A DNA stretch of 64,000 nucleotides from NCBI GenBank assembly GCA_030641715.1, contig DAOWGX010000015.1:560-64559 (forward strand), written 5' to 3'. The notes under the pieces are model-generated. The model had not been told where the DNA came from, searched no databases, and saw only the letters and a program-made list of their open reading frames with translations. Shown here piece by piece: positions 34,224 to 48,877 of this stretch (its first letter is position 1; every line of letters starts with the position of its first letter). A program made the translations under genes and the position numbers. Source of the stretch: Nanobdellota archaeon (GTDB taxonomy: Archaea; Nanobdellota; Nanobdellia; Pacearchaeales; GW2011-AR1).

Positions 34224-35240
34224 ATGGGAAAAAATATCTTGAAGTATTTAGGGAAAATTAGAGGTACACGACTGGGGCAACAGATAGCAAGAGGAATTCT
34301 TTCTACAAAAATAATTGTCAATAGCCCATTATATAAAAAACTCTACAATAAAAAAATTGAATCCGTTATGTCGGCGAGAGAGAAAGTGTTACCTCGAAGT
34401 CTTGAAATCGGAATTACGAATGCGTGTAATGCCAACTGCATCATGTGCCCCCATCATAAATTGGAAAAAATAGGATTCATGGATATGAAACTTTACAAAA
34501 AAATTATCGACGATGCCAGCTCCTCAGGCATTGGTGGCGTAGGACTTTCTTTTTTTGGAGAAGCATTTCTGGATAAGAATTTAATCGAGCGAATAAAATA
34601 TGCAAAATCCAAAGGACTCGGAGTTTCCTTTTTTACAAATGGATCCTTAATGAATAAAGAAAAAGCAGAAGAGATAATTAAAGCAGGACTAGATTCTATG
34701 GTGATTAGCTTGGATTCAATAAAAAAAGAAACTTACGAAAAAATAAGAAGAAACTTAAAATTTGAAGATACAAAAAATAATATTTTAGGATTAATCAAAT
34801 TGAAGGAGAAATTGAAGAAAAACAATCCTAAAATTAATCTCGTTTTTGTTTTAATGGATGAAAACGCGTCGGAATTGAAAGAATATTACAAGGAATGGAG
34901 AAGCAAGGTCAATAGTATTAATGTTATCAACATGAGAAACTGGTCTGGAGAAGTGAACAATAAGACAGAAAAAAGCATTCATTTCAAAAAAGGACTAGAA
35001 AGGACCCCTTGCGGGTTGTTGTGGCAACAATTTAATATCGACTGGGACGGGAAAGTTGTAATTTGTTGTAACGATTGGGGGCACAATGTTGTTTTAGGAG
35101 ATATGAATAAAGAAAGCATAAGCGATGTATGGTTCGGGAAGAAACTAAAAGCTATTCGAGAGGTGCACAAGAGAAGGGAATTTTATAAAATACCATTTTG
35201 TGCAAAGTGCAATAAAAAGACCATCTGGTGGCAGATGTAA
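34224..35240 (+). CDS. Radical SAM enzyme with a C-terminal SPASM/twitch Cys-rich domain.
   Basis: CNANCIMC (CxxxCxxC) is present N-terminally, and the C-terminus carries CGLLW...CCNDWGH...CAKCNKK. Confidence 0.75.
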   Translation: MGKNILKYLGKIRGTRLGQQIARGILSTKIIVNSPLYKKLYNKKIESVMSAREKVLPRSLEIGITNACNANCIMCPHHKLEKIGFMDMKLYKKIIDDASSSGIGGVGLSFFGEAFLDKNLIERIKYAKSKGLGVSFFTNGSLMNKEKAEEIIKAGLDSMVISLDSIKKETYEKIRRNLKFEDTKNNILGLIKLKEKLKKNNPKINLVFVLMDENASELKEYYKEWRSKVNSINVINMRNWSGEVNNKTEKSIHFKKGLERTPCGLLWQQFNIDWDGKVVICCNDWGHNVVLGDMNKESISDVWFGKKLKAIREVHKRREFYKIPFCAKCNKKTIWWQM

Positions 35241-35455: not shown

Positions 35456-38119
35456 ATGGATAAAAAAGTTATTACAGATATCTTAAAAGATAAACGATTT
35501 CAATGGATAGCGACGACAATCATCTTCCTAATCATATTATTCATGAGCTCCTCTATCAGAGTTTCTAACTGGGATTTATTAACAGACCAAACCACTGGAG
35601 AGAAGATTCCACTAGCCTTAGACCCTTATTATTTTCTGAGAATTGCCGAAACCATTTCAGAAACTGGCGAAAATATGCCGGAAGTAGATGTTATGAGAAA
35701 TAGCACCCCGTGGCATGCAGAAATCATGCCGAAAGTCGTCGTCGGAATGTATAACTTTGGAAATGTTTTCAATCCAAATTTAACATTAAGAGAAGTGAAC
35801 GTTTTTTCCCCAGTTGCATTTTATTTCGTCGGGTTGATAATATTTTTCTTCTTAGTTTACATTTTAACAAAATCTAAAGTTGCGGGTTTAATCTCGTCGG
35901 GTTTGTTAGCCTTTTCCCCCGCATACCTTTATCGGACAATGGCAGGTTTCTCGGATCACGAATCTATAGGTATGGTCGCCCTCTTCGCTTGCTTTTTATT
36001 TTACACATTGGCACTAAAGAATTTTGAGCAGAATTGGAAAAAGACAGTTCTCTATGGATTAGGTCTAGGATTTTTTACTGCATTCGTTTTAGCGACGTGG
36101 GGGGGTGCTATCACCCTCGTATTGATGGCCGTTCCCCTTTCGTTTTTATTATACTGGCTACTAAAAAATAAAGATAGGGTAAAAGCAATCGCGTTTTATC
36201 TTGCATGGATTATCTCAAGTATTCTGTTCCCGTTAATCTTCAACAACACCTTAGTAAAAGTTATGATTGGTAGATTCTCGACCACATACGGACTACTTAC
36301 TTTTGCAGTTCTTGGATTTATGCTAATTGATTACATCTTTGAGTTATTAATTAAAACAGGGAAAATCAAAATAAAAAAAGAGAATAAGATTTTGTATGTT
36401 CTCGGAAGTTCTGCAGTGATAGGATCCGTCGCCCTAACCTTTTTAGGTAAAAACATTCTGGCACTTTTGAAAGATGTTTGGTATGCAATTTTATTTCCCT
36501 TTGGAACCACCCGTGTAAATTTAACCGTCGCTGAGAATGCACAACCTTACCTGATGGATTGGATTAATCAAAATGGTCCAATGATTTTCTGGCTATTTGT
36601 TTTTGGAATTTTCTTTATGGGATTTGAACTTGGAAAGACCATTAAGTCGAAAAAGCATACCTTACTATTTAGTCTATCTTGGATGTTGATGATTTCTGCG
36701 ATGTTGTTTAGCAGAATTTCATCTTCGTCAATATTTAACGGAGAAAACCTTCTTAGTCAAGCAACATATTTAATGGGCCTTGGAATTTTCCTAGGATATT
36801 TTATTTGGTTGAAAATGCATCAAAAATTTAATGGAGAAAAATTGGATTCTTCTTTAATCCTACTCATCGTCTTGATGTTTGTCGTGGTTCTTAATGGTAG
36901 GTCGGCCATTAGAACTTTCTTTTTGATTACTCCGTTTGTTCTTTTAGGAGTCGGATATTTCGTAATGAAAATTTTCAAATATGCTCGAGAAAGCAAGGAA
37001 GAGATTTTAAAAATAGTCCTTTGGGGATTATTTTTATTTGCGATTGGAGGAGTTTTATTTTCTGTAAACACTTACAAAGAAAATATTACTAATCAGGCCA
37101 AGTATACAGGACCTAGTGCAAACGTGCAGTGGCAGGGAGCGATGTCTTGGGTTCGTAACAATACAGAAGAAAGCGATAAATTCATGCATTGGTGGGATTA
37201 TGGATATTGGGTACAAACACTTGGTGAGAGACCGACGAGTGGCGATGGGGGACACTTCCAAGGGTTCTATAACGGGAACATAAGAATCGGACGGTATCTT
37301 CTAACGACAGATAAGCCAGAAAGTGCATACAGCCTCATGAAAACCCATAATGTTTCATACTTATTGATAGACCCAACGGATTTAGGAAAGTACAGTGCCT
37401 ATTCCAAGATAGGCTCCGACGACGATTGGGATAGATTTTCCATGATTCCCGTGGGAGTTTCCGATGAAAAGAATATAAAAGAGACTGCGGATGGCGTAGC
37501 TCAAATTTATCAGTTGAATAGCATTGTCGACGAGGATATTTATTACGAAGATATTTTCTTGCCAGGTCCGAGTTATGATACCTATGGCAGACCTTCTTAC
37601 AAATCTTATATTATCGGGATCATCCTAAAAGTAGGTTCTGGGGAGAACGGGACAATCGAACAGCCAGAGGCCGTTTATGTTTATAATAATATTCAATATA
37701 AAATTCCCTTAAGAAGAATTTACTTCAATGGTCGGTTGCACGATTTTGATAGTGGATTAAATGCAACCCTTAGATTAATCCCCTCAGTTCAGCAATCGGG
37801 ACAAGGGATGACAGTCAACCCTCTAGGAGCAGCGATATATTTATCTCCGAGAACTGAAAAGACTTTGTTTGCGAAACTATATTTGATGGACGATCCTTTA
37901 AGAGAATATAGCGAGATTTCTTTGGCTCACTCTGAAGATGGTCCTGTCGTCAAAGCGATGAAGATGCAGAATGCCGCGATAAATGACTTCGTTTATTATC
38001 AAGGATTTCGAGGACCTATCAAGATTTGGGATGTTGATTATCCCGTTGGGACCCCAGTCTATGAAGAATTTTTGAAACCTTCTACAGGTTATGGGGATGT
38101 TGATTGGAGGTTTGAGTAG
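35456..38119 (+). CDS. aglB: Archaeal oligosaccharyltransferase AglB (STT3 family).
   Basis: A 13-TM N-terminal region is followed by the WWDYGYW motif and a DK-like segment in a large C-terminal periplasmic domain. Size is 887 aa. Confidence 0.9.
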   Translation: MDKKVITDILKDKRFQWIATTIIFLIILFMSSSIRVSNWDLLTDQTTGEKIPLALDPYYFLRIAETISETGENMPEVDVMRNSTPWHAEIMPKVVVGMYNFGNVFNPNLTLREVNVFSPVAFYFVGLIIFFFLVYILTKSKVAGLISSGLLAFSPAYLYRTMAGFSDHESIGMVALFACFLFYTLALKNFEQNWKKTVLYGLGLGFFTAFVLATWGGAITLVLMAVPLSFLLYWLLKNKDRVKAIAFYLAWIISSILFPLIFNNTLVKVMIGRFSTTYGLLTFAVLGFMLIDYIFELLIKTGKIKIKKENKILYVLGSSAVIGSVALTFLGKNILALLKDVWYAILFPFGTTRVNLTVAENAQPYLMDWINQNGPMIFWLFVFGIFFMGFELGKTIKSKKHTLLFSLSWMLMISAMLFSRISSSSIFNGENLLSQATYLMGLGIFLGYFIWLKMHQKFNGEKLDSSLILLIVLMFVVVLNGRSAIRTFFLITPFVLLGVGYFVMKIFKYARESKEEILKIVLWGLFLFAIGGVLFSVNTYKENITNQAKYTGPSANVQWQGAMSWVRNNTEESDKFMHWWDYGYWVQTLGERPTSGDGGHFQGFYNGNIRIGRYLLTTDKPESAYSLMKTHNVSYLLIDPTDLGKYSAYSKIGSDDDWDRFSMIPVGVSDEKNIKETADGVAQIYQLNSIVDEDIYYEDIFLPGPSYDTYGRPSYKSYIIGIILKVGSGENGTIEQPEAVYVYNNIQYKIPLRRIYFNGRLHDFDSGLNATLRLIPSVQQSGQGMTVNPLGAAIYLSPRTEKTLFAKLYLMDDPLREYSEISLAHSEDGPVVKAMKMQNAAINDFVYYQGFRGPIKIWDVDYPVGTPVYEEFLKPSTGYGDVDWRFE

Positions 38120-38120: not shown

Positions 38121-38972
38121 ATGATTGTGGTAAGAATTGTAGGGGGACTTGGAAATCAATTATTCCAGTATACGATGGCTAAAGCTTTAGCAGTTAAACA
38201 TAACGTACAGATAGGGGTGGATGCAACCTCGCTCAAAGGAAGAGACAAGGAGGGTCATTTTAGAAGAAAATTTAAATTAAATAGACTTAATGTCGATTTT
38301 GAGGAAATACCTTTGAAAAAAATAAGAAAATATATTTGGATAACGGGGAATAAATATATCGATGATCCTATTATTAGAAGATTCAGACTTTTTGAAAAAA
38401 ATGTTTGGCGAGACAATGGCATAATAAAAGATTTTAATAAATTACCTAATGATATTTATTTGGATGGTTATTTTGGTAATCCAGATTACCTTAAAGGCTT
38501 GCATAAAATACTTCAAAAGGAAATCAGATTAAGAGATACAAAACCTATTAAAGAAATATTAAAAAGTGTTAAGAGCTCCAACTCTGTTTCAATACATGTT
38601 CGCCGAGGAGATTTGTTAAAACTAGAAAATTCATACATCCTCCCATTAAATTATTATAAACAAGCAATTAAAATTATAACAAAGAAAATAAAAAACCCCA
38701 AATATTATATTTTTTCCGATGATATTAATTGGTGTAAAAAAAAATTTAACTTTTTGAAAAACACATGTTTTGTTGAAGGATATGATGTTACGCAAGATTT
38801 TGAATTAATGAAAAATTGCAAACATAACATTTTAGCAAATAGTTCTTTAAGTTGGTGGGTGGGTTATTTAAATTCCAATAGAAATTCTATTATTATTGCA
38901 CCGAAACATTTTGGAGTATGGAAAATTCACCCCGGGAAAGAACCAAGTTTAAAAAAATGGATTGTTATTTAA
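38121..38972 (+). CDS. GT11 alpha-1,2-fucosyltransferase-like glycosyltransferase. The start is moved to the ATG that abuts the aglB stop.
   Basis: IVGGLGNQLFQY, HVRRGD, ANSSLSWWVGYL and IIAPKHF match the FutC/GT11 motifs. GGAGG lies 17 nt upstream. Confidence 0.85.
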   Translation: MIVVRIVGGLGNQLFQYTMAKALAVKHNVQIGVDATSLKGRDKEGHFRRKFKLNRLNVDFEEIPLKKIRKYIWITGNKYIDDPIIRRFRLFEKNVWRDNGIIKDFNKLPNDIYLDGYFGNPDYLKGLHKILQKEIRLRDTKPIKEILKSVKSSNSVSIHVRRGDLLKLENSYILPLNYYKQAIKIITKKIKNPKYYIFSDDINWCKKKFNFLKNTCFVEGYDVTQDFELMKNCKHNILANSSLSWWVGYLNSNRNSIIIAPKHFGVWKIHPGKEPSLKKWIVI

Positions 38973-39022
38973 AATGAAAATATTAATAAAAATAAAATTG
39001 ACTAACGGGAGAGATCGTAGAT

Positions 39023-39994
39023 ATGACCGATAGAACATCTATAGTAGTTACAATTAGAACATCCCTTGGAAATACTCTTAATTTTGTTAGCTACCATCTT
39101 AATATTGGTATAGATCATATCTATCTCTTTTTCGATAATCCTGATGATCCTGCAATAAATTTCCTTTCAAAAAACAAAAAAGTTACCTGTTTCAAATGTA
39201 ATTTAAATCATTGGTCAAAATTAACTAATAAAAAAAAGCTGTCGATAGAAGAAAGACAAAAACTTAATGCAGATATGGCATTTAAGAAAGCTAAAAAAGA
39301 AAGCTATAATTGGATTGCCCACATAGATAGTGATGAATTAATTTATACTAGAGGATCCTTAAAAATTCTTTTGTCCAAAGTTCCAAAGGAGATACAAGTT
39401 CTTCGATTAAGAACCATGGAAGCAGTTCCTGAGAAATGCGAAGACAAAAACTTATTTAGAGAGATTACCTTATTTAAAAACCTGGGGCAGATTTCAAAAA
39501 TTTATTATTCACATAAAAAAATTCTCCAAAAAATAGTTCCTTTGTTAAAAAAATGCGAAGGCAATATTTCCGGAATTTACTTTAGGGCACATGCTGTTGG
39601 AAAATCAATAATACGTACAAACTCAAATATAAATCGTGTCGAAATCCATGAGCCTTCTCCGAAAGAGGGATGTAAATTAAAATGTATGTTCGTTTCTAAT
39701 GCCTCTCTTTTGCATTTTGATTCTTGTTCTTTTGAAGATTGGAAATTAAAATGGATTAGACGACTTGACGGAACTGCTACAGCTAAGGGGCTATGCAATG
39801 TAGAGGCTAGACTATTAGAGGATTTTGCGAAAGCTTACGAAATTAAGGATATAAACAAGATATACAAACTTTATAGAAAACAGTATTTTATGTCTTGGAT
39901 TAAAAAATTTATTTTTAAGCGAGTAGGATTATTAAAGCAAATAAACTTAAATGAGAAATTATTCAGGTTATCAGAAAATTTTAAAGAAGAGTAA
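39023..39994 (+). CDS. GT-A fold glycosyltransferase, GT92 (DUF23)-like.
   Basis: HW...Q...N.D...Y.WIAHIDSDELI resembles the GT92 hW-NDC-DxDEF signature. Confidence 0.4.
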   Translation: MTDRTSIVVTIRTSLGNTLNFVSYHLNIGIDHIYLFFDNPDDPAINFLSKNKKVTCFKCNLNHWSKLTNKKKLSIEERQKLNADMAFKKAKKESYNWIAHIDSDELIYTRGSLKILLSKVPKEIQVLRLRTMEAVPEKCEDKNLFREITLFKNLGQISKIYYSHKKILQKIVPLLKKCEGNISGIYFRAHAVGKSIIRTNSNINRVEIHEPSPKEGCKLKCMFVSNASLLHFDSCSFEDWKLKWIRRLDGTATAKGLCNVEARLLEDFAKAYEIKDINKIYKLYRKQYFMSWIKKFIFKRVGLLKQINLNEKLFRLSENFKEE

Positions 39995-40021
39995 TTTAAA
40001 AAAAATAGATTATTATTTAAA

Positions 40022-40951
40022 ATGAAAAAAATATTAAATAAAATACAAGATGATTATTTGCCTTTGTATACCTTCATGAAACAAATTTATGGGAATACCG
40101 TCGGAATGTGGTTCGCGAAAGAAATGTTTGTTAAATATATCGGATTCTATAACGGCAAAAAGCGTTTGAGGTTACTTAGTAATATCGAAAGTGATAAGAT
40201 TATAGTCGAAAAAGTTAAGTCCGGAAAACCTTTTATGTTAGGAAGGTTTGGTAGTAGCGAAGTCAGGGGAATTTTTAAAAATGAATTTGACATACTATGT
40301 TTTTATGCCGGATTTTTCCCGAGAGACAAAAGCCTATTGAGCAAATTTAAGAAAGTATATCTGGACGCAGCTAAATCTTTAGACATTTTAGCTATTTGGA
40401 ATTATAAAAATCATTTTTTAAATAAAATCAAATTACTCAGAACCTTACCGAATATTGAAAACATCATTCCCCTCCCTGCTGCAGGAGGCATAGATCGTCC
40501 CTGGATAAAAGAGCTAAAAGGAAAGAAGATTCTAGTAATCCATCCATTCAAAAAAACAATTGAAAGCCAGTATAAAAAAAGTGCACAACTAAAGATATTG
40601 CCAACTCTCAAAAGTCTCGAAGTGATAAAAGCAGTTCAAACCCTGGGAGACAACGAGGACAGCAGATTTAAAATATGGTTCGACGCATTGGACTTCATGA
40701 AAAAAGAAATCGATAAAAAAGATTTTGATATCGCATTGATTGCGTGCGGGGCTTATGGTTTACCTTTGGCAGCCCACGTTAAATCTATTGGAAAGCAGGC
40801 ACTGCATGTGGGAGGAGGGTTGCAGTTACTATTCGGAATAAGGGGTAAGCGATGGGATGACAAGATGGAATACAACAAATATTGGGTATCACCGATGAAA
40901 GAAGATTTCCTGAAAGACCATAAAAAGTTTGAAGGAGGATGTTATTGGTAA
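40022..40951 (+). CDS. Hypothetical protein, possibly a GT-D (DUF1792)-like glycosyltransferase.
   Basis: MLGRFGSSEV resembles the RFGDGE motif of DUF1792. Otherwise I recognise nothing. Confidence 0.3.
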   Translation: MKKILNKIQDDYLPLYTFMKQIYGNTVGMWFAKEMFVKYIGFYNGKKRLRLLSNIESDKIIVEKVKSGKPFMLGRFGSSEVRGIFKNEFDILCFYAGFFPRDKSLLSKFKKVYLDAAKSLDILAIWNYKNHFLNKIKLLRTLPNIENIIPLPAAGGIDRPWIKELKGKKILVIHPFKKTIESQYKKSAQLKILPTLKSLEVIKAVQTLGDNEDSRFKIWFDALDFMKKEIDKKDFDIALIACGAYGLPLAAHVKSIGKQALHVGGGLQLLFGIRGKRWDDKMEYNKYWVSPMKEDFLKDHKKFEGGCYW

Positions 40952-41003
40952 AAGAATTTGAGAGTAGAATTAATTATTTATAGCCAATAATCTAAATTTA
41001 GAT

Positions 41004-41807
41004 TCATTTTTTATTTATAGCCAATATATTCTGAAAATTATATATCTCATAATAAGTCTTTTTTGAAAAATCAATCTTTAACAATCCTCTTGGAAGAAGC
41101 CTATATAAATCATAATCTTTTAACAATTCTCTAAAATCTTCCATAAAAACTTTTGAATAAACATTTATCCAATTAAATTCAAATTGAATGATCTTTATTT
41201 TTCCTTCTTCAATTAGTCTTTTTGCTCCTTGAAGAACTGACAACTCATTTCCTTCAACATCTATTTTCATAAAATCAATCTTATTGATATTTCTTTGTTT
41301 GCAAAAATCATTTAACTTTATTAGATGAATTTCCTCTCCTCGCAAATCTTCATTATTTCTAAATACATTATGTATGCTGGCAAGAGAGGATGCACCTTTA
41401 AATTTTGGATAATAAATCATTTCCTTAGAATCTTCTTTGCCTAATCCCCAGGGAATAAGTTCAATATTCTTATTTGTTCCATGAAGTTTTTTGTAGGCTA
41501 TAATATTTTCAGATACTGGCTCAAAAGCATAAATTTTAGAATTTGGAAAATATTTTACTAATTCTTTCGAGTAATGTCCAACATTTGCCCCAATATCAAA
41601 AATAATTTTAGTTTTTTTGCTTGATAATTTTGAAAGAATAAATTCTTCTCCTGTGTCCGATAGGTTGCCATCAAGACTTACGCCCATTCCTTTTAAGGCA
41701 AGGCAAAGGAATAGTTTGTGTAGTTTATAAAAACAACTTCTTGAAAAAATGAAGCGATACAAATGGTCTGCAATCATTTTAGTTTTCATTTTCCTTATTT
41801 CCAACAT
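41004..41807 (-). CDS. FkbM-family SAM-dependent methyltransferase.
   Basis: FDIGANVGHYS ... KIYAFEP ... IDFMKIDVEGNELSVLQGA is the FkbM domain signature. Confidence 0.8.
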   Translation of the reverse strand: MLEIRKMKTKMIADHLYRFIFSRSCFYKLHKLFLCLALKGMGVSLDGNLSDTGEEFILSKLSSKKTKIIFDIGANVGHYSKELVKYFPNSKIYAFEPVSENIIAYKKLHGTNKNIELIPWGLGKEDSKEMIYYPKFKGASSLASIHNVFRNNEDLRGEEIHLIKLNDFCKQRNINKIDFMKIDVEGNELSVLQGAKRLIEEGKIKIIQFEFNWINVYSKVFMEDFRELLKDYDLYRLLPRGLLKIDFSKKTYYEIYNFQNILAINKK

Positions 41808-42172
41808 TTTTATATTTACAGATGATGTCAGTATAAAAAGATATGCATCCTAAGGTAGATATGAATGGAAAATCTATCCCTATTATTATGAAAGAAATTT
41901 TCGGAATATTAAAAAAAGAAAAAGAGTATTCAATTAGAAATTTATCATTAAAGATTAAGTCTTAGTAGATAATATTATATGCTAGTTCATTTTCACGCAA
42001 ACTGAAACAACACAATATTTAAATATAATAAACAAATAAAAGATGATGATAAATATTTATAATCATTTTCTATTAGTTGACAAGTTAGATTTTTTAAAAA
42101 TAAAGTTACCTAAATTGCACAGTCTTAAGAATCATTACGAATTTTATAACAAAATTAATATAAAAATACAAA

Positions 42173-43252
42173 ATGATTAACAAGGTAAATAATCTTAAAG
42201 AGGACTCAGCAATTTTAACTACCATTCGAGGGGGGTTTAACCAATTCTATGCCCAGCAAAAATGGTCCTTAACTGGTCCGAACAAGAAACTAAATGAGAA
42301 ACTTTTAGAAGAAATAAGAAGTAGCACAGTATTTAGAAATGAAGGATACTCGGATTATAAAATGACTTCCTTGCCAAAATCTCCTAGTACAATTACTAAA
42401 AGACAATTAGTTAAAGATATATTTTACCTAGGAGAAAAAGTAGACTTTCCTAAATCAATTGTTAAGAAGATTAGTCAACATCATGCTTGGAAAATAGAAA
42501 GGATTGGAATAAAGAATCCAAAAAAAATATTAGCTGTCGGAGTTTCTAATGGAGGAGAACTTATAGCATTGAGGGCGATGTACCCTCGTGCAGAAATATT
42601 CGTTTGTGATTGGATTATCTCTCTATCAAAAAAAATGATTGATGAACTAAATATAAAAAACGTAAAAAAATCGACAATATGTGAATATTTAAAACATAAC
42701 AATGAATTCGATATAATTTATACCAACCATGTCTTAGAACATATGTTTAATCCCGACGAAACAATTTCATTATTATTTAAATCCTTAAAAAAAGGAGGCG
42801 TGCTAAGTTCAGGAATGCCCTTAGAAGGAGACGTCAGAAATCCTTTAAAAAACAGGACAATTAGACTCTTATCTGGAAAAGCATTCTATAGAAAATTTAA
42901 TATGGGAACTGTAAACATTGGACATCCTTGGAAAACAACTTATTCCGACCTTTGTCTAACCTTAAGACGTTCCGGTTTCAAAAAAATCGAATTCTTTAAA
43001 TTTGATGATTATACCGCCGCATGGCACATTGTAAATCCATTACCAAAAGAAAAAGTTGCTAAAAATTTGAAAATCAGATTAATTTTAGAAAAACTTATTT
43101 TTGGGACTATAAGAAATATTTTCTATAAGATAGACAAAGTTCCGAACATTATTCTTAGAGTATATTATAATTTTATGCATGCTTCCTGGTTCGGAGAGAG
43201 TAGGATTGTGGCTGATTTCACTCCTGAAGTATTTTTTGTAGCAAAAAAATAA
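42173..43252 (+). CDS. Class I SAM-dependent methyltransferase.
   Basis: ILAVGVSNGGE (motif I), DIIYTNHVLEHM and LKKGGVL. Confidence 0.7.
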   Translation: MINKVNNLKEDSAILTTIRGGFNQFYAQQKWSLTGPNKKLNEKLLEEIRSSTVFRNEGYSDYKMTSLPKSPSTITKRQLVKDIFYLGEKVDFPKSIVKKISQHHAWKIERIGIKNPKKILAVGVSNGGELIALRAMYPRAEIFVCDWIISLSKKMIDELNIKNVKKSTICEYLKHNNEFDIIYTNHVLEHMFNPDETISLLFKSLKKGGVLSSGMPLEGDVRNPLKNRTIRLLSGKAFYRKFNMGTVNIGHPWKTTYSDLCLTLRRSGFKKIEFFKFDDYTAAWHIVNPLPKEKVAKNLKIRLILEKLIFGTIRNIFYKIDKVPNIILRVYYNFMHASWFGESRIVADFTPEVFFVAKK

Positions 43253-43307
43253 CCTCATTCCATACAATCCTCGATATCTTTAAATAGATAACATTATCAA
43301 AATATAC

Positions 43308-44234
43308 ATGACAAAAATTTACGATTGTTTCCTATTCTTTAATGAACTTGATTTATTAGAAATAAGACTCAGCGAATTAAATGATTTTGTAGATTATTTC
43401 GTTTTAGTTGAAGCTAGGCAAAACCATCAAGGCAAATCGAAACCACTTTATTTCAAGGAGAACAAAGAGAGATTTAAAAAATGGAATGATAAAATAATTC
43501 ATATTATAGTTGATTTACCAAGATTTAATTTTATGGACAGACTCATGGTTAATTTAGAAAAAGGGAGACTTAGGGAGCCTATCAGAAAAATAAATGGAAT
43601 TGGATTTTTTGGGATGGGATTTGGAGGTTTAAAAATGGATCATTGGCAAAGAAGGCTTATTATCAAAGGATTAAAAAAATGTGGGGATGAGGATATCATT
43701 GTCGTATCTGATTTAGACGATATCCCGCGTTCAGAAAAAATGAGAGAAGTGATAGAATTATTGACAAAGCATAAAGTTGTAACAATAGAAACAGATTTCT
43801 ATAATTATTATATCAATGGAAAGGTGTGTGCCCTAAATGGAAGTCAAATAAAACGGGCTCAGGTACGTGCATGCAAATTTAAAACATTAAAAAAAGAATT
43901 TTTCTCTAATCCGCATTTTCTTAGAAGTCCTTTTGATAGTCCCTTAGGGAGAATAGGGATAATACCTCGAAATAGCTATTTGCTAAAAGATGCTGGCTGG
44001 AGTTTTTGCTCAGTTGGAGGAGCGGAAAAAGTCAAATTAAAAATAGAGTCTTTCTGCCATAGTGGAGAATTTAAAGATAAAGAATATTCAAACATATCCG
44101 AGATATCAAAAAAAATAGAATCTGGTGAATCTCTTGGAAGCGATCTTCACGTAGAATATATCAGAGTAGATAATACTTTTCCAAAGACAGTATTGGATAA
44201 CAAAAAGAAATTTTCACATATTATAAAAGAATAA
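43308..44234 (+). CDS. GT17-like (beta-1,4-mannosyl-glycoprotein GlcNAc-transferase family) glycosyltransferase.
   Basis: The N-terminal YDCFLFFNELDLLEIRLSELNDFVDYFVLVEARQNHQGKSKPLYF matches the GT17 family start. Confidence 0.7.
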   Translation: MTKIYDCFLFFNELDLLEIRLSELNDFVDYFVLVEARQNHQGKSKPLYFKENKERFKKWNDKIIHIIVDLPRFNFMDRLMVNLEKGRLREPIRKINGIGFFGMGFGGLKMDHWQRRLIIKGLKKCGDEDIIVVSDLDDIPRSEKMREVIELLTKHKVVTIETDFYNYYINGKVCALNGSQIKRAQVRACKFKTLKKEFFSNPHFLRSPFDSPLGRIGIIPRNSYLLKDAGWSFCSVGGAEKVKLKIESFCHSGEFKDKEYSNISEISKKIESGESLGSDLHVEYIRVDNTFPKTVLDNKKKFSHIIKE

Positions 44235-45056
44235 TCATAGGTTTATTGTGCTTTGTAAACATTTAGAAATTCCTTCCCTAACTTTAATTTGAGGATTATA
44301 TCCTAGAGCTCTTATTTTTGAGATATCAATTTTTACTTTTTGAGGTTGTTCTATTTCATGAGGCGCAAATCTAATTTTTGATAAACTTTTTGTTTGAGAG
44401 ATTATCTCATTTGCAACATCTATTAATTTCATTTCATCATTTCCTGCAATATCATAACTTTCATTCCACCTTTGCAAAGAAAGTATCACTCCTTCAACAA
44501 AATCATCTACATATGTAAAATCTAGGGTTTTGTCTTTATCTCCAAAAATAACCAACTCTTTATTATTTTTTGCATTATTTATGAAAATACTCATTAATCT
44601 CTTTGTGATATCCTCTCCAGGACCATAAACAGTGCTTGGCCTAATTATGATGTAATCTATCCCGTAACATTTTTTATAGGCTTCACAAAGTTCCTCCCCA
44701 TATAGTTTTGAAGAAGTATAGGTATTTTTTTCAGGACATAAAACTCTTGTAGACGAAAAATAAACTATTTTAGGTATTTTGTTTTTCCTACAAAATTCTA
44801 ATGAATTAAAAATTCCTTCTACATTTTCAAAGGCCCACTCAGGATTATCTACACATTTATTTATCTTACAATTTGAAGCTAAGTGAAACAAAATATCTGC
44901 CTTTGAAATTTCTTTTTTAGAGAGATTCCTTACATCAAGAGGATTACTTTTGTCTCTTAAATCAACACTTAAAATACATTCATTTCCACCCCCCTCTAAT
45001 CTTTGTTTTAATCTCCTCCCAATAAGTCCTTTATGACCTGTAATTATAAAATTCAT
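44235..45056 (-). CDS. NAD-dependent sugar epimerase/dehydratase (SDR). The start is moved to MNFIITG.
   Basis: ITGHKGLIG is the Rossmann motif, and YTSSK is the catalytic YxxxK. Confidence 0.8.
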   Translation of the reverse strand: MNFIITGHKGLIGRRLKQRLEGGGNECILSVDLRDKSNPLDVRNLSKKEISKADILFHLASNCKINKCVDNPEWAFENVEGIFNSLEFCRKNKIPKIVYFSSTRVLCPEKNTYTSSKLYGEELCEAYKKCYGIDYIIIRPSTVYGPGEDITKRLMSIFINNAKNNKELVIFGDKDKTLDFTYVDDFVEGVILSLQRWNESYDIAGNDEMKLIDVANEIISQTKSLSKIRFAPHEIEQPQKVKIDISKIRALGYNPQIKVREGISKCLQSTINL

Positions 45057-45266
45057 TTTATAATAAAAAAACATTATTTATTTGCATAAAATTAAACAAG
45101 ACAAAAAGTATTTAATTGTTTCTATTTAATCGGTTTCGCCAAGAGTTTCAAAATTAAAAACAAAAATTAATTAGATTGAAAAACAAAGAGCAAATCGAGA
45201 TTTCTTTTTTATTGATTCTGAACAATACCCAATTAAGAGTAATTATATAAACTTGAATTAATTTAT

Positions 45267-46169
45267 TTGGAAATGAATAAGTCAAAACTTACAACTCCAA
45301 TACTTTATCTCGCCTTCAATCGTCTAGATTCTGTTAAAAAAACATTCCCTGAGATACAAAAAGCAAAACCGAAACAGCTATTCATTGCATGCGACGGCCC
45401 ACGGAACAAAGAAGAGAAAGAAAAAACAGATTCCGTCAGAAAATACATCTTGAAAAACATCAATTGGAAATGTAAAGTTAAAACTTTATTCAGAAATAAA
45501 AATTTAGGATGCAAATATGCCGTCGCTGGAGCGATTAATTGGTTTTTCAAAAATGTTGAACAAGGGATTATCTTAGAAGACGATTGCTTGCCAGACCAAA
45601 GTTTTTTTAGATTTTGTCAGGAGATGCTGGAGAAATATAAAAATAATGAGAAAATAATACAGATTAGTGGAACTAGTTTTTTTAGTAAAAAAAGAAATAA
45701 ATATTCATATATATTTTCAAGATATGGCAATATATGGGGATGGTCCACATGGAGAAGATCATGGAAGAATTATGACGTGGATTTAAAAAATTATGATAAA
45801 TTCAACCAATTAAAATGGAAAGAAAAAATAAAATTTTTTGATAAAATTTTGAAAAGATATTATTTTTGGCTTGTAAAAAAAAAAGGGATAAATACATGGG
45901 ATTACCAATGGAACATTACTAGATCTAAAGTTGGAGGGTTAAGTATTATCCCCTCAGTCAATTTAATAGAAAATATAGGATTCAATGGATCAGGGACGCA
46001 TACAACAAGAATGGCAAAACTTACAAATAGAGAAAATCTCCACTTCCCAATTACACATCCTAAAAAATTTGAGGAAGATTTTAGATATAATTCACTTTAT
46101 TATATAAAAAAATCTATCCCGTCTGCCATGAAAACATGTGTGCGAATAATTTTAAATTTTTTTAGTTAA
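45267..46169 (+). CDS. HlpA-like (hemolytic-protein-like) putative GT-A nucleotide-sugar transferase.
   Basis: LAFNRLD...KPKQLFIACDGPRNKEE...GIILEDDCLPDQSFFRFCQEMLEKY matches the HlpA-like family pattern. Confidence 0.55.
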   Translation: MEMNKSKLTTPILYLAFNRLDSVKKTFPEIQKAKPKQLFIACDGPRNKEEKEKTDSVRKYILKNINWKCKVKTLFRNKNLGCKYAVAGAINWFFKNVEQGIILEDDCLPDQSFFRFCQEMLEKYKNNEKIIQISGTSFFSKKRNKYSYIFSRYGNIWGWSTWRRSWKNYDVDLKNYDKFNQLKWKEKIKFFDKILKRYYFWLVKKKGINTWDYQWNITRSKVGGLSIIPSVNLIENIGFNGSGTHTTRMAKLTNRENLHFPITHPKKFEEDFRYNSLYYIKKSIPSAMKTCVRIILNFFS

Positions 46170-46196: not shown

Positions 46197-47255
46197 GTGA
46201 TGGAATTACAAAGAAAAATTTCCTCATATTTTAATGGGGAGGAGTTTCCAAAGAATGTGTTAAAAAATAAAATTTCATTACTAAAAAAAAGTATTATAAA
46301 AGAAACTGGAGAAACCAAGTTTTTATCTTTTTCAGCATCTTATCAGAAAAAATATCATAATTTATTTACAAAAGAAAAAGTAATTGTAAAATTTGTAAAA
46401 CCATTCATAAAAACAAAAACCGATAAATTTCTTAAACCACTAAATGAATTTGTTAACTACATAAGAAAAAATTTTAAAAAAGAGGAGTTAGTTGGTGCAT
46501 ATATTCATGGAAGCCTTGCAACAAATGACTATGTAAGTGGATATTCGGATTTTGATGCAATTTTAATCATAAAAGAAGATGTAATGAAAGATGATTTTAA
46601 AATGATAAAAATTAGAAACAAAATAAAAAAAGCAAACACTTTTTTATATCTGCTAGATCCATTACAACACCATAATCTGTTTATTATCACTGAATTAGAT
46701 ATGAAATATTATTTCCAACCTACATTTCCAATAGAGCTTTTTAATTATGCAAGAGAGATTACGAATTATAAAAATATCTTAAAATTTAGATGTTTTTCCG
46801 AAGACGAACATTTAGATAAAATTTTTTTGTATAGGATAGATATGTTTTCCAATCCCAAAAAATATAAACTTGATAAAAAAAATGTATATGATATTAAAAA
46901 TGCTGTCCAAAATATTCTCCTCCTCCCAGCATTATACTTACAAGGAAAAAATAAAAAATATTTATATAAAAAATATTCTTTCAATAAAGCTAAAAAAGAT
47001 TTCTCAAGGAAGGAATGGGAAATAATAGAAAGATGCTCTCAACTTAGAAGAACTTTTTCATTTAAAACATATTATCCTTATTTTTTTAGAAAATTTTTAG
47101 GTACCTATGCTCATTATAAAATATTAAAAGCACTACATCTTTATTTAGATAGAAATAACACTAAAGAGATGATGCAAATACTCGGGGAAAATTTTTTATA
47201 TGATGCAAAAAAATTATCTAAAAAAATGTATGCAAAAATAAAAGATGGAAGATAG
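46197..47255 (+). CDS. Pol-beta superfamily nucleotidyltransferase-domain protein (paralog A).
   Basis: VGAYIHGSLATNDYVSGYSDFDAILII matches the GS-x9-13-DxD NTase motif. Confidence 0.45.
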   Translation: MMELQRKISSYFNGEEFPKNVLKNKISLLKKSIIKETGETKFLSFSASYQKKYHNLFTKEKVIVKFVKPFIKTKTDKFLKPLNEFVNYIRKNFKKEELVGAYIHGSLATNDYVSGYSDFDAILIIKEDVMKDDFKMIKIRNKIKKANTFLYLLDPLQHHNLFIITELDMKYYFQPTFPIELFNYAREITNYKNILKFRCFSEDEHLDKIFLYRIDMFSNPKKYKLDKKNVYDIKNAVQNILLLPALYLQGKNKKYLYKKYSFNKAKKDFSRKEWEIIERCSQLRRTFSFKTYYPYFFRKFLGTYAHYKILKALHLYLDRNNTKEMMQILGENFLYDAKKLSKKMYAKIKDGR

Positions 47256-48408
47256 ATTAATAAGCCTAATGAAAAAATCTACAATGATAGATAAGCCTAG
47301 GTATTACTCAAGAGAAGAATATAATAATGCTTCAAGAGAATATCTGAAGATACTTAATCCTAAAAAAAACAATATTAAATCAGTATATCAGGTAGGGTCT
47401 ATTGGAGTTCCGGGAATTTCCGATATTGATTATTTTATAGTTTATAAAAATGATAAAAATGATTTTTTTGGGAAATACCACATATTAAATCTTTCAAAAG
47501 ATTCTAAATACATGTTCTATCATAATTGTTGGTTCGTAAATGAGAAAGTTATTGAAAACCTTGGATACTGGTTTCCATTTTTTAATTTAGATAAGGTATA
47601 TGGAGATATAATCAATATAAAAAAAATTAAAGAAATTGAGATAGATTTAATTCTTGCCACCCAATATCTAATAAGTAAAATTCCTTATGACCTAATAGAT
47701 TATTCCATTAAGAGAAAAAAATTTTATCAAAGAACAATGCTTGTTTCTATACATTCATTAAGGCATACAGTCAAGCTTATAGATAGAATAGGATATGCTA
47801 AAAAAAATTGGTTAAGTTTTTGTGAAGAATTTGACAGATTCAGAAAAAACTGGTTCAAGGAAAAAAATCGGGAAGACAGATTAATAAAATTTTCAGCTAA
47901 GTCTATACTAATATCTCTCGATATAATAGAAATGTTTGACAAAATTTTAATAGAAAATTTTAATATACAAGCCCCAAAAGATTCATTTAAACTTCACTCA
48001 GGAAATAAAGATTTTTATTTTTTGAATAAATGGGATAAAGACAAAATATTAAAAAAATACATGATTCAGAAATTTAAAGACATTCGATACTACCCATCAT
48101 CTTTTGCATATTATCTCTATTTGAGAAGTATCGACAATGGTAATCTTGGAAAACAAATGAGGAAAAAATTTCCTCGAAACATAAAATATTCTGTTCCAAA
48201 AAATATTAAAACATCTTTTTCAAAGTATGAACAAATACTCAACGAATTTAACGAATTTAACAAGAAAAAATTCTGGATGACTGCTAATGGATATCATACA
48301 CTGTGGGCATCTTATTATGCAGAGAATTCTTCTCTTAATTATATTTATGATAAAATATTCAAAACGAGAGAGCTATCTATAATAATTTTTAAAAAAATTT
48401 TTAGCTAA
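47245..48408 (+). CDS. Pol-beta superfamily nucleotidyltransferase-domain protein (paralog B).
   Basis: VYQVGSIGVPGISDIDYFIVY is the NTase motif. The gene overlaps paralog A by 11 nt. Confidence 0.45.
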   Translation: MEDRLISLMKKSTMIDKPRYYSREEYNNASREYLKILNPKKNNIKSVYQVGSIGVPGISDIDYFIVYKNDKNDFFGKYHILNLSKDSKYMFYHNCWFVNEKVIENLGYWFPFFNLDKVYGDIINIKKIKEIEIDLILATQYLISKIPYDLIDYSIKRKKFYQRTMLVSIHSLRHTVKLIDRIGYAKKNWLSFCEEFDRFRKNWFKEKNREDRLIKFSAKSILISLDIIEMFDKILIENFNIQAPKDSFKLHSGNKDFYFLNKWDKDKILKKYMIQKFKDIRYYPSSFAYYLYLRSIDNGNLGKQMRKKFPRNIKYSVPKNIKTSFSKYEQILNEFNEFNKKKFWMTANGYHTLWASYYAENSSLNYIYDKIFKTRELSIIIFKKIFS

Positions 48409-48430: not shown

Positions 48431-48877
48431 CTACCCCTGACTAAAGTCCGGAGCGTGACTAATCCCAATGCTTGCTCTGCGACTCCTCAATATGATACCT
48501 CCCCCTCTTCGTTGTAACACATCCGACACTCCGGGCAAAATAACCCTCGCTCCAAAACTTTTTATCCCACAAAAACTCTTGAAAAATTCAAAATGATTTT
48601 TCCTCATTATCCTCGAAGAGAAACCCTCCAGCAACTGAATAACCTGACAAGGTGCATAATTCTTGCAATTCGTTACAAAAAGGTGGATGTGTCCGGGTCC
48701 AAATTCCAAACAAACAAACTCACCATTTATCTCATTCAGTTTTTCCAGAAGATAAGTCTCGGTTAATTTCAAAACCCCCCCACTAGAGAAGATTTGTCTT
48801 CGATAAGCGACGGTCAACTGAATGTGATAGTTAAATTCACCGACGGCATGGTGGTAGTTACGTGTTTCAAATTCCAT
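48431..48877 (-). CDS. tnpA: IS200/IS605-family transposase TnpA (HUH, Y1 type), possibly degenerate.
   Basis: YHIQLTVAYRRQIF...GPGHIHLFV (HuH) ...EGFSSRIM are present. The C-terminal FGARVILPGV lacks the expected catalytic-Tyr context. Confidence 0.65.
   Translation of the reverse strand: MEFETRNYHHAVGEFNYHIQLTVAYRRQIFSSGGVLKLTETYLLEKLNEINGEFVCLEFGPGHIHLFVTNCKNYAPCQVIQLLEGFSSRIMRKNHFEFFKSFCGIKSFGARVILPGVSDVLQRRGGGIILRSRRASIGISHAPDFSQG

What the first reader, a model, noticed from the sequence alone, without database searches (positions are those of the whole stretch)
38121..44234. Eukaryote-type glycosyltransferase families (GT11, GT92-like, GT17-like) clustered directly downstream of aglB.
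The gene abutting aglB has complete GT11 alpha-1,2-fucosyltransferase motifs (GGLGNQLFQY, HVRRGD, SWW). Further downstream is a GT17-like gene (bisecting-GlcNAc-transferase family N-terminal FLFFNELDLLEIRL...KPLYF) and a DxDE GT-A with GT92-like spacing. Two methyltransferases (FkbM and class I) and an SDR epimerase lie among them. This predicts a fucosylated and methylated N-glycan with eukaryote-like elaboration in an archaeon.
Basis: partly seen in the sequence, partly recalled or inferred. Interest (0 to 1): 0.6.

Follow-up and report, generated by a model that had tools for sequence, protein, structure and literature searches.

The report
Variable sugar-coat gene island beside archaeal aglB
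An uncultured cold-seep archaeon carries, right after its N-glycosylation enzyme gene aglB, a swappable low-GC block of sugar-adding and methylating genes whose families (GT11, GT17, GT92-like) are real but common in prokaryotes and viruses, so this is an ordinary, if nicely preserved, variable glycan locus.

Summary

- **Not eukaryote-type in origin.** The closest homologues are short proteins without membrane anchors, from uncultured archaea, CPR bacteria, plasmids and phages.
- **Hypervariable island.** GC drops from 0.378 to 0.285 exactly at the aglB/GT11 junction. The closest genome (AglB 70% identical) has unrelated GT genes there. Among 33 related aglB loci with at least 5 kb downstream, GT11 occurs in 2, GT17 in 1 and GT92-like in 1.
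- **Link to AglB is real but indirect.** The nearest homologues of each GT again lie just downstream of AglB in sister lineages.
- **Likely mechanism.** Cytoplasmic enzymes probably build a lipid-linked, deoxyhexose-capped, methylated glycan that AglB transfers to protein.
- **Fucose unproven.** No GDP-fucose pathway gene lies in the window.
- **By-product.** GT17 and GT11 (often with FkbM) form a recurrent gene pair in viral contigs and a cyanophage.

This is a new member of a known kind, of modest interest.

The parts
33197..34189 (+). AglH/Alg7/WecA-type polyprenyl-phosphate HexNAc-1-P transferase (Pfam Glycos_transf_4). It is the conserved initiating enzyme upstream of aglB.
   Evidence: PF00953 E 1.2e-29. 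About 9 hydrophobic segments. A homologue sits about 1 kb upstream of AglB in most of 80 related loci.
34224..35240 (+). Radical SAM/SPASM protein between the initiating transferase and aglB. Role unknown; possibly sugar modification.
   Evidence: PF04055 E 1.6e-17 and SPASM E 7.6e-15. Homologues (52-58% identical) lie 1.8-4.1 kb downstream of AglB in L027, L028, L049, L063, L067 and L069.
35456..38119 (+). AglB, the archaeal oligosaccharyltransferase (STT3 family)
   Evidence: STT3 E 1.2e-14 and AglB core E 6.8e-7. WWDYG (W579-G583) is invariant. At least 12 TM segments.
38121..38972 (+). GT11 glycosyltransferase, predicted GDP-6-deoxyhexose (probably L-fucose) alpha-1,2-transferase. Likely translationally coupled to aglB.
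   Evidence: PF01531 E 4.6e-30. Motifs I-IV invariant. One-base gap to the aglB stop, with GGAGG upstream. No TM segment. A 69% homologue abuts AglB in L006.
39023..39994 (+). GT-A fold glycosyltransferase with a DSDE motif, GT92-like/PF13704-like
   Evidence: PF13704 E 8.8e-13 and PF01697 E 9.3e-9. D102, D104 and E105 invariant. The best PDB match by profile is galactan synthase GALS1 (8d3t), E 0.007. AF2 pLDDT 90.5, GT-A fold.
40022..40951 (+). It is the most conserved partner gene of the island.
   Evidence: PF22882 at 23.4 bits (cut-off 27) and NF040628 at 22.6 bits. Identity is 87% in L006, 67% in L010, 57% in L077 and 56% in L011, always next to GT11 or GT92-like. No PDB hit.
41004..41807 (-). 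FkbM-family SAM methyltransferase, predicted sugar O-methylation
   Evidence: PF05050 E 8.8e-20, TIGR01444 E 1.3e-24, and a weak hit to V. cholerae RfbT.
42173..43252 (+). Class I SAM methyltransferase
   Evidence: Methyltransf_23 E 1.7e-8 and Methyltransf_11 above cut-off. No homologue in the related loci examined.
43308..44234 (+). GT17-family GT-A glycosyltransferase, prokaryotic type, soluble. Predicted inverting beta-HexNAc transferase; acceptor unknown.
   Evidence: PF04724 E 2.4e-23. 2871 homologues, nearly all 264-363 aa. DxD invariant. AF2 pLDDT 92.9, GT-A fold. No TM segment.
44235..45074 (-). Short-chain NAD-dependent sugar epimerase/reductase. Not assignable to a specific pathway.
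   Evidence: PF01370 E 1.2e-34. The best NCBIfam hits are far below cut-off: dTDP-glucose dehydratase 87 bits against 365, GDP-L-fucose synthase 65 bits against 500.
45267..46169 (+). GT-A-like transferase with an invariant EDD motif. No Pfam or NCBIfam model.
   Evidence: No family hit. 11,431 representative homologues. E104, D105 and D106 invariant. The only PDB hint is POMGnT1 (GT13), E 0.7, not significant.
46197..48408 (+). Two overlapping ORFs with weak nucleotidyltransferase-fold similarity, function unknown. Conserved as a pair in L011.
   Evidence: Polbeta E 9e-4 and NTP_transf_2 E 0.018. 60% and 69% identical to adjacent ORFs in L011.
48431..48877 (-). IS200-type Y1 transposase gene, frameshifted, with GC 0.42 against a 0.25 background
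   Evidence: PF01797 E 1.8e-11. GC values. The canonical C-terminus reads in another frame.
50304..52631 (+). HAD hydrolase, sugar-phosphate nucleotidyltransferase and GDPD phosphodiesterase; possible precursor or phospho-modification genes
   Evidence: HAD_2 E 1.8e-32, NTP_transferase E 6.8e-16, GDPD E 3.7e-12.
53840..55536 (-). GT4 (Glycos_transf_1) and WecG/TagA-family (GT26) glycosyltransferase pair
   Evidence: PF00534 E 2.4e-9 and PF03808 E 3.2e-27. The pair recurs in L010, with WecG also in L011, L060, L073, L076 and L080.
55567..57048 (-). B12-binding radical SAM enzyme at the far end of the island
   Evidence: B12-binding E 2.5e-14 and Radical_SAM E 1.6e-15. The same family occurs in the L006 and L010 islands.

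Best explanation
The interval is the proximal part of a low-GC, hypervariable surface-glycan island of about 19 kb (38.1 to about 57 kb). It is attached to the conserved aglH-type-GT4/aglB core of an uncultured archaeon, probably DPANN/Nanoarchaeota-like, from a South China Sea cold seep.

Proposed mechanism:
1. The membrane GT4-family enzyme starts a glycan on dolichyl phosphate with HexNAc-1-P.
2. Soluble cytoplasmic glycosyltransferases extend it on the lipid carrier. These are WecG-like GT26, GT4, GT92-like, GT-D-like, GT17 and the EDD GT-A.
3. GT11 caps it with a GDP-derived 6-deoxyhexose, most likely L-fucose.
4. The FkbM and class I methyltransferases O-methylate sugars.
5. An unidentified flippase translocates the product.
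6. AglB transfers it en bloc to Asn of surface proteins.

Shown: gene families, catalytic motifs, absence of TM anchors, tight aglB-GT11 coupling, recurrence of the same modules next to AglB in sister lineages, and the mosaic, variable nature of the island.

Inferred: sugar identities, order of steps, and that the product is N-linked.
For: - **Families and motifs:**
- **Operon-like layout:** aglB is followed by GT11 after a 1-nt gap, then GT92-like after 50 nt and GT-D-like after 27 nt, all co-directional.
- **Cytoplasmic location:** none of the glycosyltransferases in the reported interval nor the methyltransferases has a TM segment. AglB and GT4 are polytopic.
- **Recurrence next to AglB:**
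  - L006: AglB (76%), GT11 (69%), GT-D-like (87%), FkbM, GT17 (66%).
  - JGI 3300072015: STT3, DUF268, GT11 (57%).
  - L008: STT3, then GT11 (46%) further downstream.
  - L004: STT3, GT4, GMD, sulfotransferase, GT17 (46%).
  - L010, L011 and L077: STT3, then GT92-like followed by GT-D-like.
- **Conserved core:** GT4 lies about 1 kb upstream of AglB in most of 80 loci.
- **Variability:**
  - L001 (AglB 70%) has unrelated GT4/GT2 genes downstream.
  - Of 33 loci with at least 5 kb downstream, GT11 is in 2, GT17 in 1 and GT92-like in 1.
  - GC steps from 0.378 to 0.285 at the junction, and a decayed IS200 is present.
- **Deoxyhexose donor supply in relatives:** GMD scores above the curated cut-off in L080 and L008, and reaches 413.9 against 415 in L004.
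- **Precedent:** DPANN N-glycans are HexNAc-linked and contain dHex. Methylated and deoxyhexose-containing archaeal N-glycans and variable agl clusters are reviewed in PMC11407970.
Against: - No biochemical or glycoproteomic data exist for this organism.
- No flippase and no GDP-fucose pathway gene (GMD, Fcl) lies in the 64 kb window. The SDR is generic.
- Some close GT17 homologues (L003, L176) sit in glycan clusters with a Wzx-type flippase and no AglB within 10 kb. The family is therefore not restricted to N-glycan pathways.
- Adjacency to aglB is guilt by association.
- The GT-D-like assignment is below the curated thresholds.
- The phylum was not established by phylogenomics.
Confidence: 0.6

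Rival explanations
1. The island makes a different surface glycoconjugate, such as a glycolipid, lipoglycan, O-linked glycan or exopolysaccharide. It sits beside aglB only because glycan genes congregate in one variable region. AglB would use a simpler glycan made elsewhere.
For: - GT17 homologues at 44-45% identity lie in clusters with a Wzx-like Polysacc_synt flippase, GT2, GT8 and FkbM, with no STT3 within 10 kb (L003, L176).
- In bacteria and phages, GT11, GT17 and FkbM occur in O-antigen/EPS-type cassettes.
- A WecG/TagA-type enzyme is typical of teichoic-acid or ECA-type polymers.
Against: - GT11 is translationally coupled to aglB.
- The nearest homologues of all three GTs are AglB-linked in several independent lineages.
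- No polymerase (Wzy), chain-length or export genes were found in the window.
Confidence: 0.27
2. The genes are eukaryote-type enzymes, acquired from or ancestral to eukaryotes. They elaborate the N-glycan in a eukaryote-like way: bisecting GlcNAc on a trimannosyl core and an H-antigen-like Fuc-alpha1,2-Gal cap.
For: - The Pfam families are those of MGAT3, FUT1/2 and GALT-1/GALS1.
- GT92 members are beta-1,4-galactosyltransferases and GT11 acts on beta-Gal (family knowledge), and the two genes are adjacent here.
- DPANN N-glycans have a HexNAc2Hex3-4 composition.
Against: - The closest homologues are all prokaryotic or viral, at 40-78% identity.
- The proteins lack the type II anchor and stem.
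- GT11 and GT92-like are not an obligate pair in relatives: L006 lacks GT92-like, and L010, L011 and L077 lack GT11.
- Bacterial GT17 members have no known MGAT3 activity.
Confidence: 0.05
3. The island is a decaying, recently imported block, and part of it is no longer functional.
For: - The IS200 tnpA is frameshifted.
- A truncated paralogue of the EDD GT-A lies at 52666-53085, and a split DUF7796 gene at 49093-49979.
- There is a strong GC discontinuity.
Against: - All GT and methyltransferase ORFs in 38.1-46.2 kb are full length with invariant catalytic residues intact.
- The same contig was recovered in two assemblies.
- AF2 models are confident.
Confidence: 0.08

Closest known systems
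Archaeal agl (N-glycosylation) gene clusters centred on aglB, e.g. Haloferax volcanii aglB cluster with the AglP methyltransferase and the variable second cluster giving a rhamnose-containing glycan
   Same: Glycosyltransferases, a sugar methyltransferase and sugar-nucleotide enzymes are clustered with aglB. The glycan is assembled on dolichol phosphate in the cytoplasm. Strain-to-strain variability of the cluster is documented (PMC11407970).
   Different: The GT repertoire here is GT11, GT17, GT92-like, GT-D-like and an EDD GT-A, rather than mainly GT2/GT4. The initiating enzyme is AglH/Alg7-type. The lineage is uncultured and probably DPANN. Nothing has been tested experimentally.
Bacterial GT11 alpha-1,2-fucosyltransferases (H. 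pylori FutC; E. coli O86 WbwK, O128 WbsJ, O127 WbiQ)
   Same: All are soluble, about 280-300 aa, and share the same four motifs. They are encoded in low-GC variable glycan clusters and act on lipid-linked intermediates (PMC4202792).
   Different: Identity to plasmid-borne bacterial members is only 23-32%. Here the gene is coupled to an oligosaccharyltransferase gene, not to an O-antigen ligase or polymerase system.
Eukaryotic MGAT3/GnT-III (GT17), FUT1/FUT2 (GT11), GALT-1/GALS1 (GT92)
   Same: They belong to the same Pfam families, and GT17 and GT92-like share the DxD-containing GT-A core.
   Different: The window proteins have no N-terminal TM anchor or stem and are cytoplasmic rather than Golgi-lumenal. 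They would act before, not after, transfer to protein. The GT17 match begins at Pfam model position 74. The GALS1 similarity is marginal (E 0.007) and was not recovered by Foldseek.
Cyanophage glycan cassette (Synechococcus phage RN05-S, PV261924.1): GMD, RmlC-like epimerase, two SDRs, FkbM, GT17, GT11, DegT, GT-A, methyltransferase
   Same: The family set is the same: FkbM, GT17, GT11, SDR, a GT-A and a second methyltransferase. The GT17-GT11 pairing recurs in 28 of 79 viral GT17 loci.
   Different: Identity is only 24-29%. The context is viral, without AglB. The phage cassette includes GMD, which the window lacks.
N-glycans of cultured DPANN (Nanobdellati) archaea
   Same: They are HexNAc-linked glycans of composition HexNAc2Hex3-4, with or without dHex (bioRxiv 10.64898/2026.06.04.730037). 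This is compatible with an AglH-type start and a deoxyhexose cap.
   Different: The order is different (Nanobdellales). No methylation was reported in the passages read. The genes responsible were not compared here.

Membership tests
CAZy/Pfam GT11 (alpha-1,2-fucosyltransferases) | Profile match above the curated threshold over the full domain | tested here: met
   PF01531 E 4.6e-30, 105.3 bits against 23.9, residues 11-275 matching model positions 1-279 of 298
CAZy/Pfam GT11 (alpha-1,2-fucosyltransferases) | Four conserved motifs: GxLGNQ..Y, HxRRGD, FSDD and NSxxSWW | tested here: met
   G9, G11, Y17; R161, R162, D164; F198, S199, D200; N240, S241, W245, W246 are invariant in 40 homologues. 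The motif strings are visible.
CAZy/Pfam GT11 (alpha-1,2-fucosyltransferases) | Uses GDP-L-fucose; donor supply available | tested here: inconclusive
   No GMD or Fcl gene in the window, and the rest of the genome was not seen. GMD is present in related GT11-bearing islands L080 and L008. Enzyme activity is not testable here.
CAZy/Pfam GT17 (MGAT3 family) | Profile match above the curated threshold | tested here: met
   PF04724 E 2.4e-23, 83.2 bits against 26. All 120 listed homologues carry PF04724.
CAZy/Pfam GT17 (MGAT3 family) | DxD metal/nucleotide-binding motif in a GT-A fold | tested here: met
   D135 and D137 invariant. AF2 model pLDDT 92.9, with GT-A matches only.
CAZy/Pfam GT17 (MGAT3 family) | Bisecting beta-1,4-GlcNAc transfer to the core beta-mannose of an N-glycan | not testable with these tools
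   No prokaryotic GT17 has a demonstrated activity (PMC4202792).
CAZy/Pfam GT17 (MGAT3 family) | Type II Golgi membrane topology of the eukaryotic enzymes | tested here: not met
   The maximum 19-residue hydropathy is 1.01, so there is no TM segment. The catalytic domain starts at residue 3.
CAZy/Pfam GT92 | Profile match above threshold and best among competing GT-A models | tested here: inconclusive
   PF01697 scores 35.7 bits (cut-off 23), but PF13704 Glyco_tranf_2_4 scores 49 bits. The precomputed annotation lists PF01697 for this protein and many homologues.
CAZy/Pfam GT92 | Similarity to the solved GT92 structure (GALS1, 8d3t) | tested here: inconclusive
Archaeal aglB-linked N-glycosylation (agl) cluster | A bona fide AglB with the WWDYG catalytic motif | tested here: met
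Archaeal aglB-linked N-glycosylation (agl) cluster | GT and modification genes physically linked to aglB, with the linkage conserved in relatives | tested here: met
Archaeal aglB-linked N-glycosylation (agl) cluster | Products shown to assemble the dolichol-linked glycan transferred by AglB | not testable with these tools
   This requires genetics, biochemistry or glycoproteomics.
Recent eukaryote-derived genes (inter-domain transfer from eukaryotes) | Nearest homologues are eukaryotic | tested here: not met
   The nearest homologues are unnamed or prokaryote-named metagenome proteins, plasmids and phages. The single eukaryote-labelled hit is for GT92-like: Nymphon striatum, 30% identity, rank 42 of 44.

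The most novel reading that the evidence does not exclude
The aglB-linked GT17 homologue is a cytoplasmic beta-1,4-HexNAc transferase. It acts on a beta-Man(NAc) of a dolichol-linked HexNAc2-Hex core, making it a prokaryotic counterpart (possibly forerunner) of the bisecting-GlcNAc reaction. It would work in series with GT11 and FkbM to install a methyl-fucose-type cap. The GT17-GT11-FkbM trio would then be a mobile 'glycan cap' cassette exchanged among DPANN archaea, CPR and other bacteria, and viruses. That would give the first function for the thousands of uncharacterised prokaryotic and viral GT17 proteins.
Probability: 0.12. Interest if true: 0.6.

Novelty: new member of a known kind. Interest (0 to 1): 0.3.

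Why it matters
The locus adds one more composition to the known diversity of archaeal aglB-linked glycan clusters, in a poorly studied and probably symbiotic lineage where surface glycans may mediate host contact.

Its main value is as a lead. Prokaryotic GT17 proteins are numerous but have no assigned activity. Two patterns give concrete, testable hypotheses for their acceptor and pathway:
- their repeated linkage to AglB in these archaea;
- their tight pairing with GT11 (and FkbM) in viral contigs.

Tried and rejected
- **Sequence and profile searches of the PDB.** GT11, GT17, GT92-like, GT-D-like and ORF45267 gave nothing significant. The only hints were GALS1 at E 0.007 and a non-significant POMGnT1 match.
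- **Trees with eukaryotic sequences.** I could not fetch eukaryotic GT11 or GT17 sequences, so no inter-domain tree was built. Rejection of a eukaryotic origin rests on nearest-neighbour identity and names only.
- **Key DPANN paper.** The DPANN N-glycan paper PMC11411935 is not held.
- **Taxonomy.** The closest GTDB genome is labelled only 'archaeon'. The 'Woesearchaeota' label of GT17 hit P0031 is doubtful, because its contig encodes a sigma-70 factor. The DPANN assignment therefore rests on Nanoarchaeota/Pacearchaeota labels of GT11 hits and is an inference.
- **Chimeric assembly.** I considered and rejected a chimeric assembly at the GC step. The aglB-GT11 junction recurs in L006, and the interior of the island (40-47 kb) was recovered again in a second assembly.
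- **Obligate GT92-like plus GT11 pair.** I considered that these two form a Gal-Fuc pair. This was rejected because they occur independently in relatives.

Full report
**1. What is in the sequence**

The window is archaeal. It carries:
- an archaeal-type ribosomal protein operon at 17-29 kb, followed by SecY;
- L10P, a wyosine-formation radical SAM, an AMP-phosphorylase-like gene and an IF-2B-family gene;
- AglB.

It matches exactly a 76,955-bp public contig. A second ENA assembly, from BioSample SAMN18200493, covers the 40-47 kb part that was fetched. That sample is from the Site-F cold seep in the South China Sea (PMC9357000).

AglB runs from 35456 to 38119 and ends in TAG. The next ATG, at 38121, opens the GT11 gene, and a GGAGG lies 10 nt upstream inside the end of aglB.

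Pfam gives the following:

| Gene | Coordinates | Best family hits |
|---|---|---|
| GT11 | 38121-38972 | PF01531, E 4.6e-30 |
| GT92-like | 39023-39994 | PF13704 Glyco_tranf_2_4, E 8.8e-13; PF01697 GT92, E 9.3e-9 (both above cut-off) |
| FkbM methyltransferase | 41004-41807 (−) | PF05050, E 8.8e-20 |
| Class I methyltransferase | 42173-43252 | Methyltransf_23, E 1.7e-8 |
| GT17 | 43308-44234 | PF04724, E 2.4e-23 |
| SDR | 44235-45074 (−) | PF01370 Epimerase, E 1.2e-34 |

The catalytic signatures are invariant across 40-41 homologues each:
- the four GT11 motifs;
- the GT17 DxD residues D135 and D137;
- the GT92-like residues D102, D104 and E105.

**2.

- ORF 40022-40951 is a putative GT-D-fold transferase. 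Its scores are sub-threshold: 23.4 bits against 27 in Pfam and 22.6 bits in NCBIfam.
- It is nevertheless the best-conserved partner gene across relatives, at 87, 67, 57 and 56% identity.
- The island also continues beyond the reported interval. Beyond the interval it holds:
  - an EDD-motif GT-A with no Pfam model but 11,431 representative homologues (45267-46169);
  - two nucleotidyltransferase-like ORFs;
  - a frameshifted IS200 tnpA;
  - HAD, NTP-transferase and GDPD genes;
  - a GT4 plus WecG/TagA pair (53840-55536);
  - a B12-radical SAM gene.
- Upstream of aglB sit an AglH/Alg7-type GT4-family transferase (33197-34189) and a radical SAM/SPASM gene.

**3. The island is variable and compositionally distinct**

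GC falls from 0.378 in aglB to 0.285 in GT11 exactly at the junction. It averages 0.289 over 38.1-54.9 kb, against 0.369 upstream.

The closest genome in GTDB (L001, AglB 70% identical) keeps the upstream synteny of ribosomal operon, SpoIIM-like gene, GT4 and AglB. Downstream it has unrelated GT4/GT2 genes.

I then examined 80 metagenomic loci whose AglB is 35-81% identical to this one.
- The GT4 gene sits about 1 kb upstream of AglB in most of them.
- Profile HMM scans of the 33 loci with at least 5 kb downstream found GT11 in 2, GT17 in 1, GT92-like in 1 and the EDD GT-A in 2. One further GT11 was found in a shorter locus.
- No locus combined all three families.

**4. The link to AglB is nevertheless real**

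Looking up the contigs that encode the closest homologues of each GT gave AglB-linked contexts repeatedly.
- L006: AglB C-terminus (76%), directly followed by GT11 (69%), GT-D-like (87%), FkbM and GT17 (66%).
- A JGI contig: STT3, DUF268, GT11 (57%).
- L008: STT3, then GT4 and GT11 (46%) further downstream.
- L004: STT3, GT4, GMD, sulfotransferase, GT17 (46%).
- L010, L011 and L077: STT3, then GT92-like and GT-D-like.

The modules are shuffled between lineages. Examples are GT92-like with GT-D-like, WecG with GT4, and the NTase pair. This is the pattern of a mix-and-match glycan island.

Not every relative is AglB-linked. GT17 homologues in L003 and L176 sit with a Wzx-type flippase, GT2, GT8 and FkbM, with no STT3 within 10 kb.

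**5. 'Eukaryote-type' is not justified**

- GT17 has 2871 detected homologues. The 120 listed are nearly all 264-363 aa. Their source names are Taylorbacteria, Flavobacteriales, Bacteroidia and one (doubtful) Woesearchaeota.
- GT11 homologues are already annotated as alpha-1,2-fucosyltransferase in Nanoarchaeota, Pacearchaeota, Promethearchaeota and Parcubacteria MAGs.
- tblastn finds GT17 on Azospirillum, Sinorhizobium and Pantoea replicons and in cyanophages. It finds GT11 on Lactococcus, Phocaeicola and Prevotella plasmids.
- The literature already notes uncharacterised bacterial GT17 members and well-studied bacterial GT11 enzymes (PMC4202792).
- None of these window proteins has a TM anchor. 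The GT17 match starts at Pfam model position 74, so the eukaryotic anchor and stem are absent.
- Identity declines as follows:

| Homologue group | GT11 | GT17 |
|---|---|---|
| AglB-linked archaeal | 57-78% | 46-66% |
| Other archaeal/CPR (named MAG hits) | 37-46% | 36-40% (named hits are bacterial; one doubtful Woesearchaeota) |
| Viral contigs | not scanned | 31-39% |
| Bacterial replicons | 23-33% | 27-34% |

- The GT92-like protein belongs to a small family of 44 hits. One hit is eukaryote-labelled: a KOBITO-like protein from Nymphon striatum, 30% identical. Its relation to the solved GT92 enzyme GALS1 is marginal (E 0.007) and was not recovered by Foldseek.

**6. Mechanism**

The most economical reading is an archaeal agl-type pathway.
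1. The polytopic GT4-family enzyme primes dolichyl phosphate with HexNAc-1-P.
2. Soluble cytoplasmic GTs extend the lipid-linked glycan.
3. GT11 adds a terminal GDP-derived 6-deoxyhexose.
4. FkbM and class I methyltransferases methylate sugars.
5. A flippase not present in this window translocates the product.
6. AglB transfers it to Asn.

Supporting context:
- A bona fide GMD is present in related GT11- or GT17-bearing aglB islands. It scores 433 bits in L080 and 444 bits in L008 against a cut-off of 415, and 413.9 bits in L004.
- N-glycans reported from cultured DPANN archaea are HexNAc-linked and include HexNAc2Hex4dHex.

Limits:
- The window has no GMD, Fcl or flippase gene.
- The SDR cannot be assigned to a pathway.
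- Nothing has been measured, so sugar identities and the N-linkage are inferred.

**7. By-product: a recurrent GT17-GT11(-FkbM) pairing**

Synechococcus phage RN05-S encodes, in one co-directional run, GMD, an RmlC-like epimerase, two SDRs, FkbM, GT17, GT11, DegT, a GT-A and a methyltransferase. These are distant homologues (24-29% identity) of the window genes.

Of 79 IMG/VR loci carrying a GT17 homologue:
- 28 have a GT11 homologue within 6 kb, and in 19 of those the gap is 16 bp or less;
- 17 have an FkbM homologue, and 11 have both;
- the far larger EDD GT-A family appears in none.

This suggests GT17 and GT11 act on the same glycan in many systems. I found no paper describing the pairing.

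**8. Verdict**

The finding is a correctly read but over-interpreted glycan island.
- It is a new member of the known class of variable aglB-linked glycosylation clusters.
- Its GT repertoire is uncommon within its own clade but is built from families that are widespread in prokaryotes and viruses.
- Interest is modest (0.3). The useful lead is the GT17-GT11-FkbM association, as a handle on the function of prokaryotic GT17.

Noticed in passing
L092 (Synechococcus phage RN05-S, PV261924.1 96652-105530); viral loci L096-L174: GT17 and GT11 homologues form a recurrent, often directly adjacent gene pair in viral contigs, frequently with an FkbM methyltransferase. GT11 lies within 6 kb in 28 of 79 loci, and in 19 the gap is 16 bp or less. 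FkbM is present in 17 of 79. The cyanophage has FkbM, GT17 and GT11 downstream of GMD. I found no description of this pairing in the papers searched.
   Followed up: partly
window 48431-48877 (-): This is an IS200-type Y1 transposase gene with GC 0.42 in a 0.25 background. Its canonical C-terminus (LWDKKFWSEGYFARSVG...) reads in a different frame, so the gene is frameshifted: either decay or an assembly error at a homopolymer.
   Followed up: partly
window 52666-53085 (-) and 49093-49979 (-): A 139-aa ORF resembles only the N-terminal part of the EDD GT-A at 45267-46169, so it looks like a truncated paralogue. A DUF7796-like gene appears split into an 88-aa and a 196-aa ORF. Both are signs of gene decay inside the island.
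   Followed up: no
window 45267-46169 (+): This protein has no Pfam or NCBIfam hit, yet it has 11,431 representative homologues (3290 at E 1e-30 or better), often fused into proteins of 500-1900 aa. It has an invariant EDD motif and several invariant Trp residues. Its only PDB hint is the GT13 enzyme POMGnT1 at E 0.7. It is a very large GT-A-like family that these two libraries (Pfam-A and NCBIfam) do not model.
   Followed up: partly
window 34224-35240 (+); L027, L028, L049, L063, L067, L069: A radical SAM/SPASM protein lies between the initiating GT4 and aglB here. In six related loci its homologue (52-58% identical) lies 1.8-4.1 kb downstream of AglB. It is a recurrent but unexplained companion of AglB in this clade.
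   Followed up: no
window 55567-57048 (-) and 61660-63102 (-): Two B12-binding radical SAM enzymes flank the distal end of the island. The same family recurs in the aglB islands of L006 and L010. They may be C-methylases of sugars.
   Followed up: no
L011 6718-8085 (-) and 9252-9980 (+): A related aglB island encodes a UDP-sulfoquinovose-synthase-like protein (NF041015, 335 bits against a cut-off of 575) and a TauE sulfite exporter-family protein. This hints at sulfosugar-containing N-glycans in a sister lineage.
   Followed up: no
P0284: The only eukaryote-labelled homologue of the GT92-like protein is a 550-aa 'Glycosyltransferase-like KOBITO 1' from the sea spider Nymphon striatum, fused to sulfotransferase domains (30% identity). 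It could be contamination or a horizontal acquisition in that assembly.
   Followed up: no
L175 (GCA_019323235.1, JAHWHN010000087.1): The contig carrying the GT17 homologue labelled 'Candidatus Woesearchaeota archaeon' also encodes a sigma-70 factor. The contig is probably bacterial and mis-binned.
   Followed up: no
window 46197-48408 (+); L011 14297-16511: Two overlapping ORFs with faint nucleotidyltransferase-fold similarity and very low GC (0.24-0.25) are conserved as a pair (60% and 69% identity) in another aglB island. Their function is unknown.
   Followed up: no
window 9973-10156 (-): Two tRNA-Ser genes (anticodons TGA and CGA) lie in tandem, 22 nt apart.
   Followed up: no
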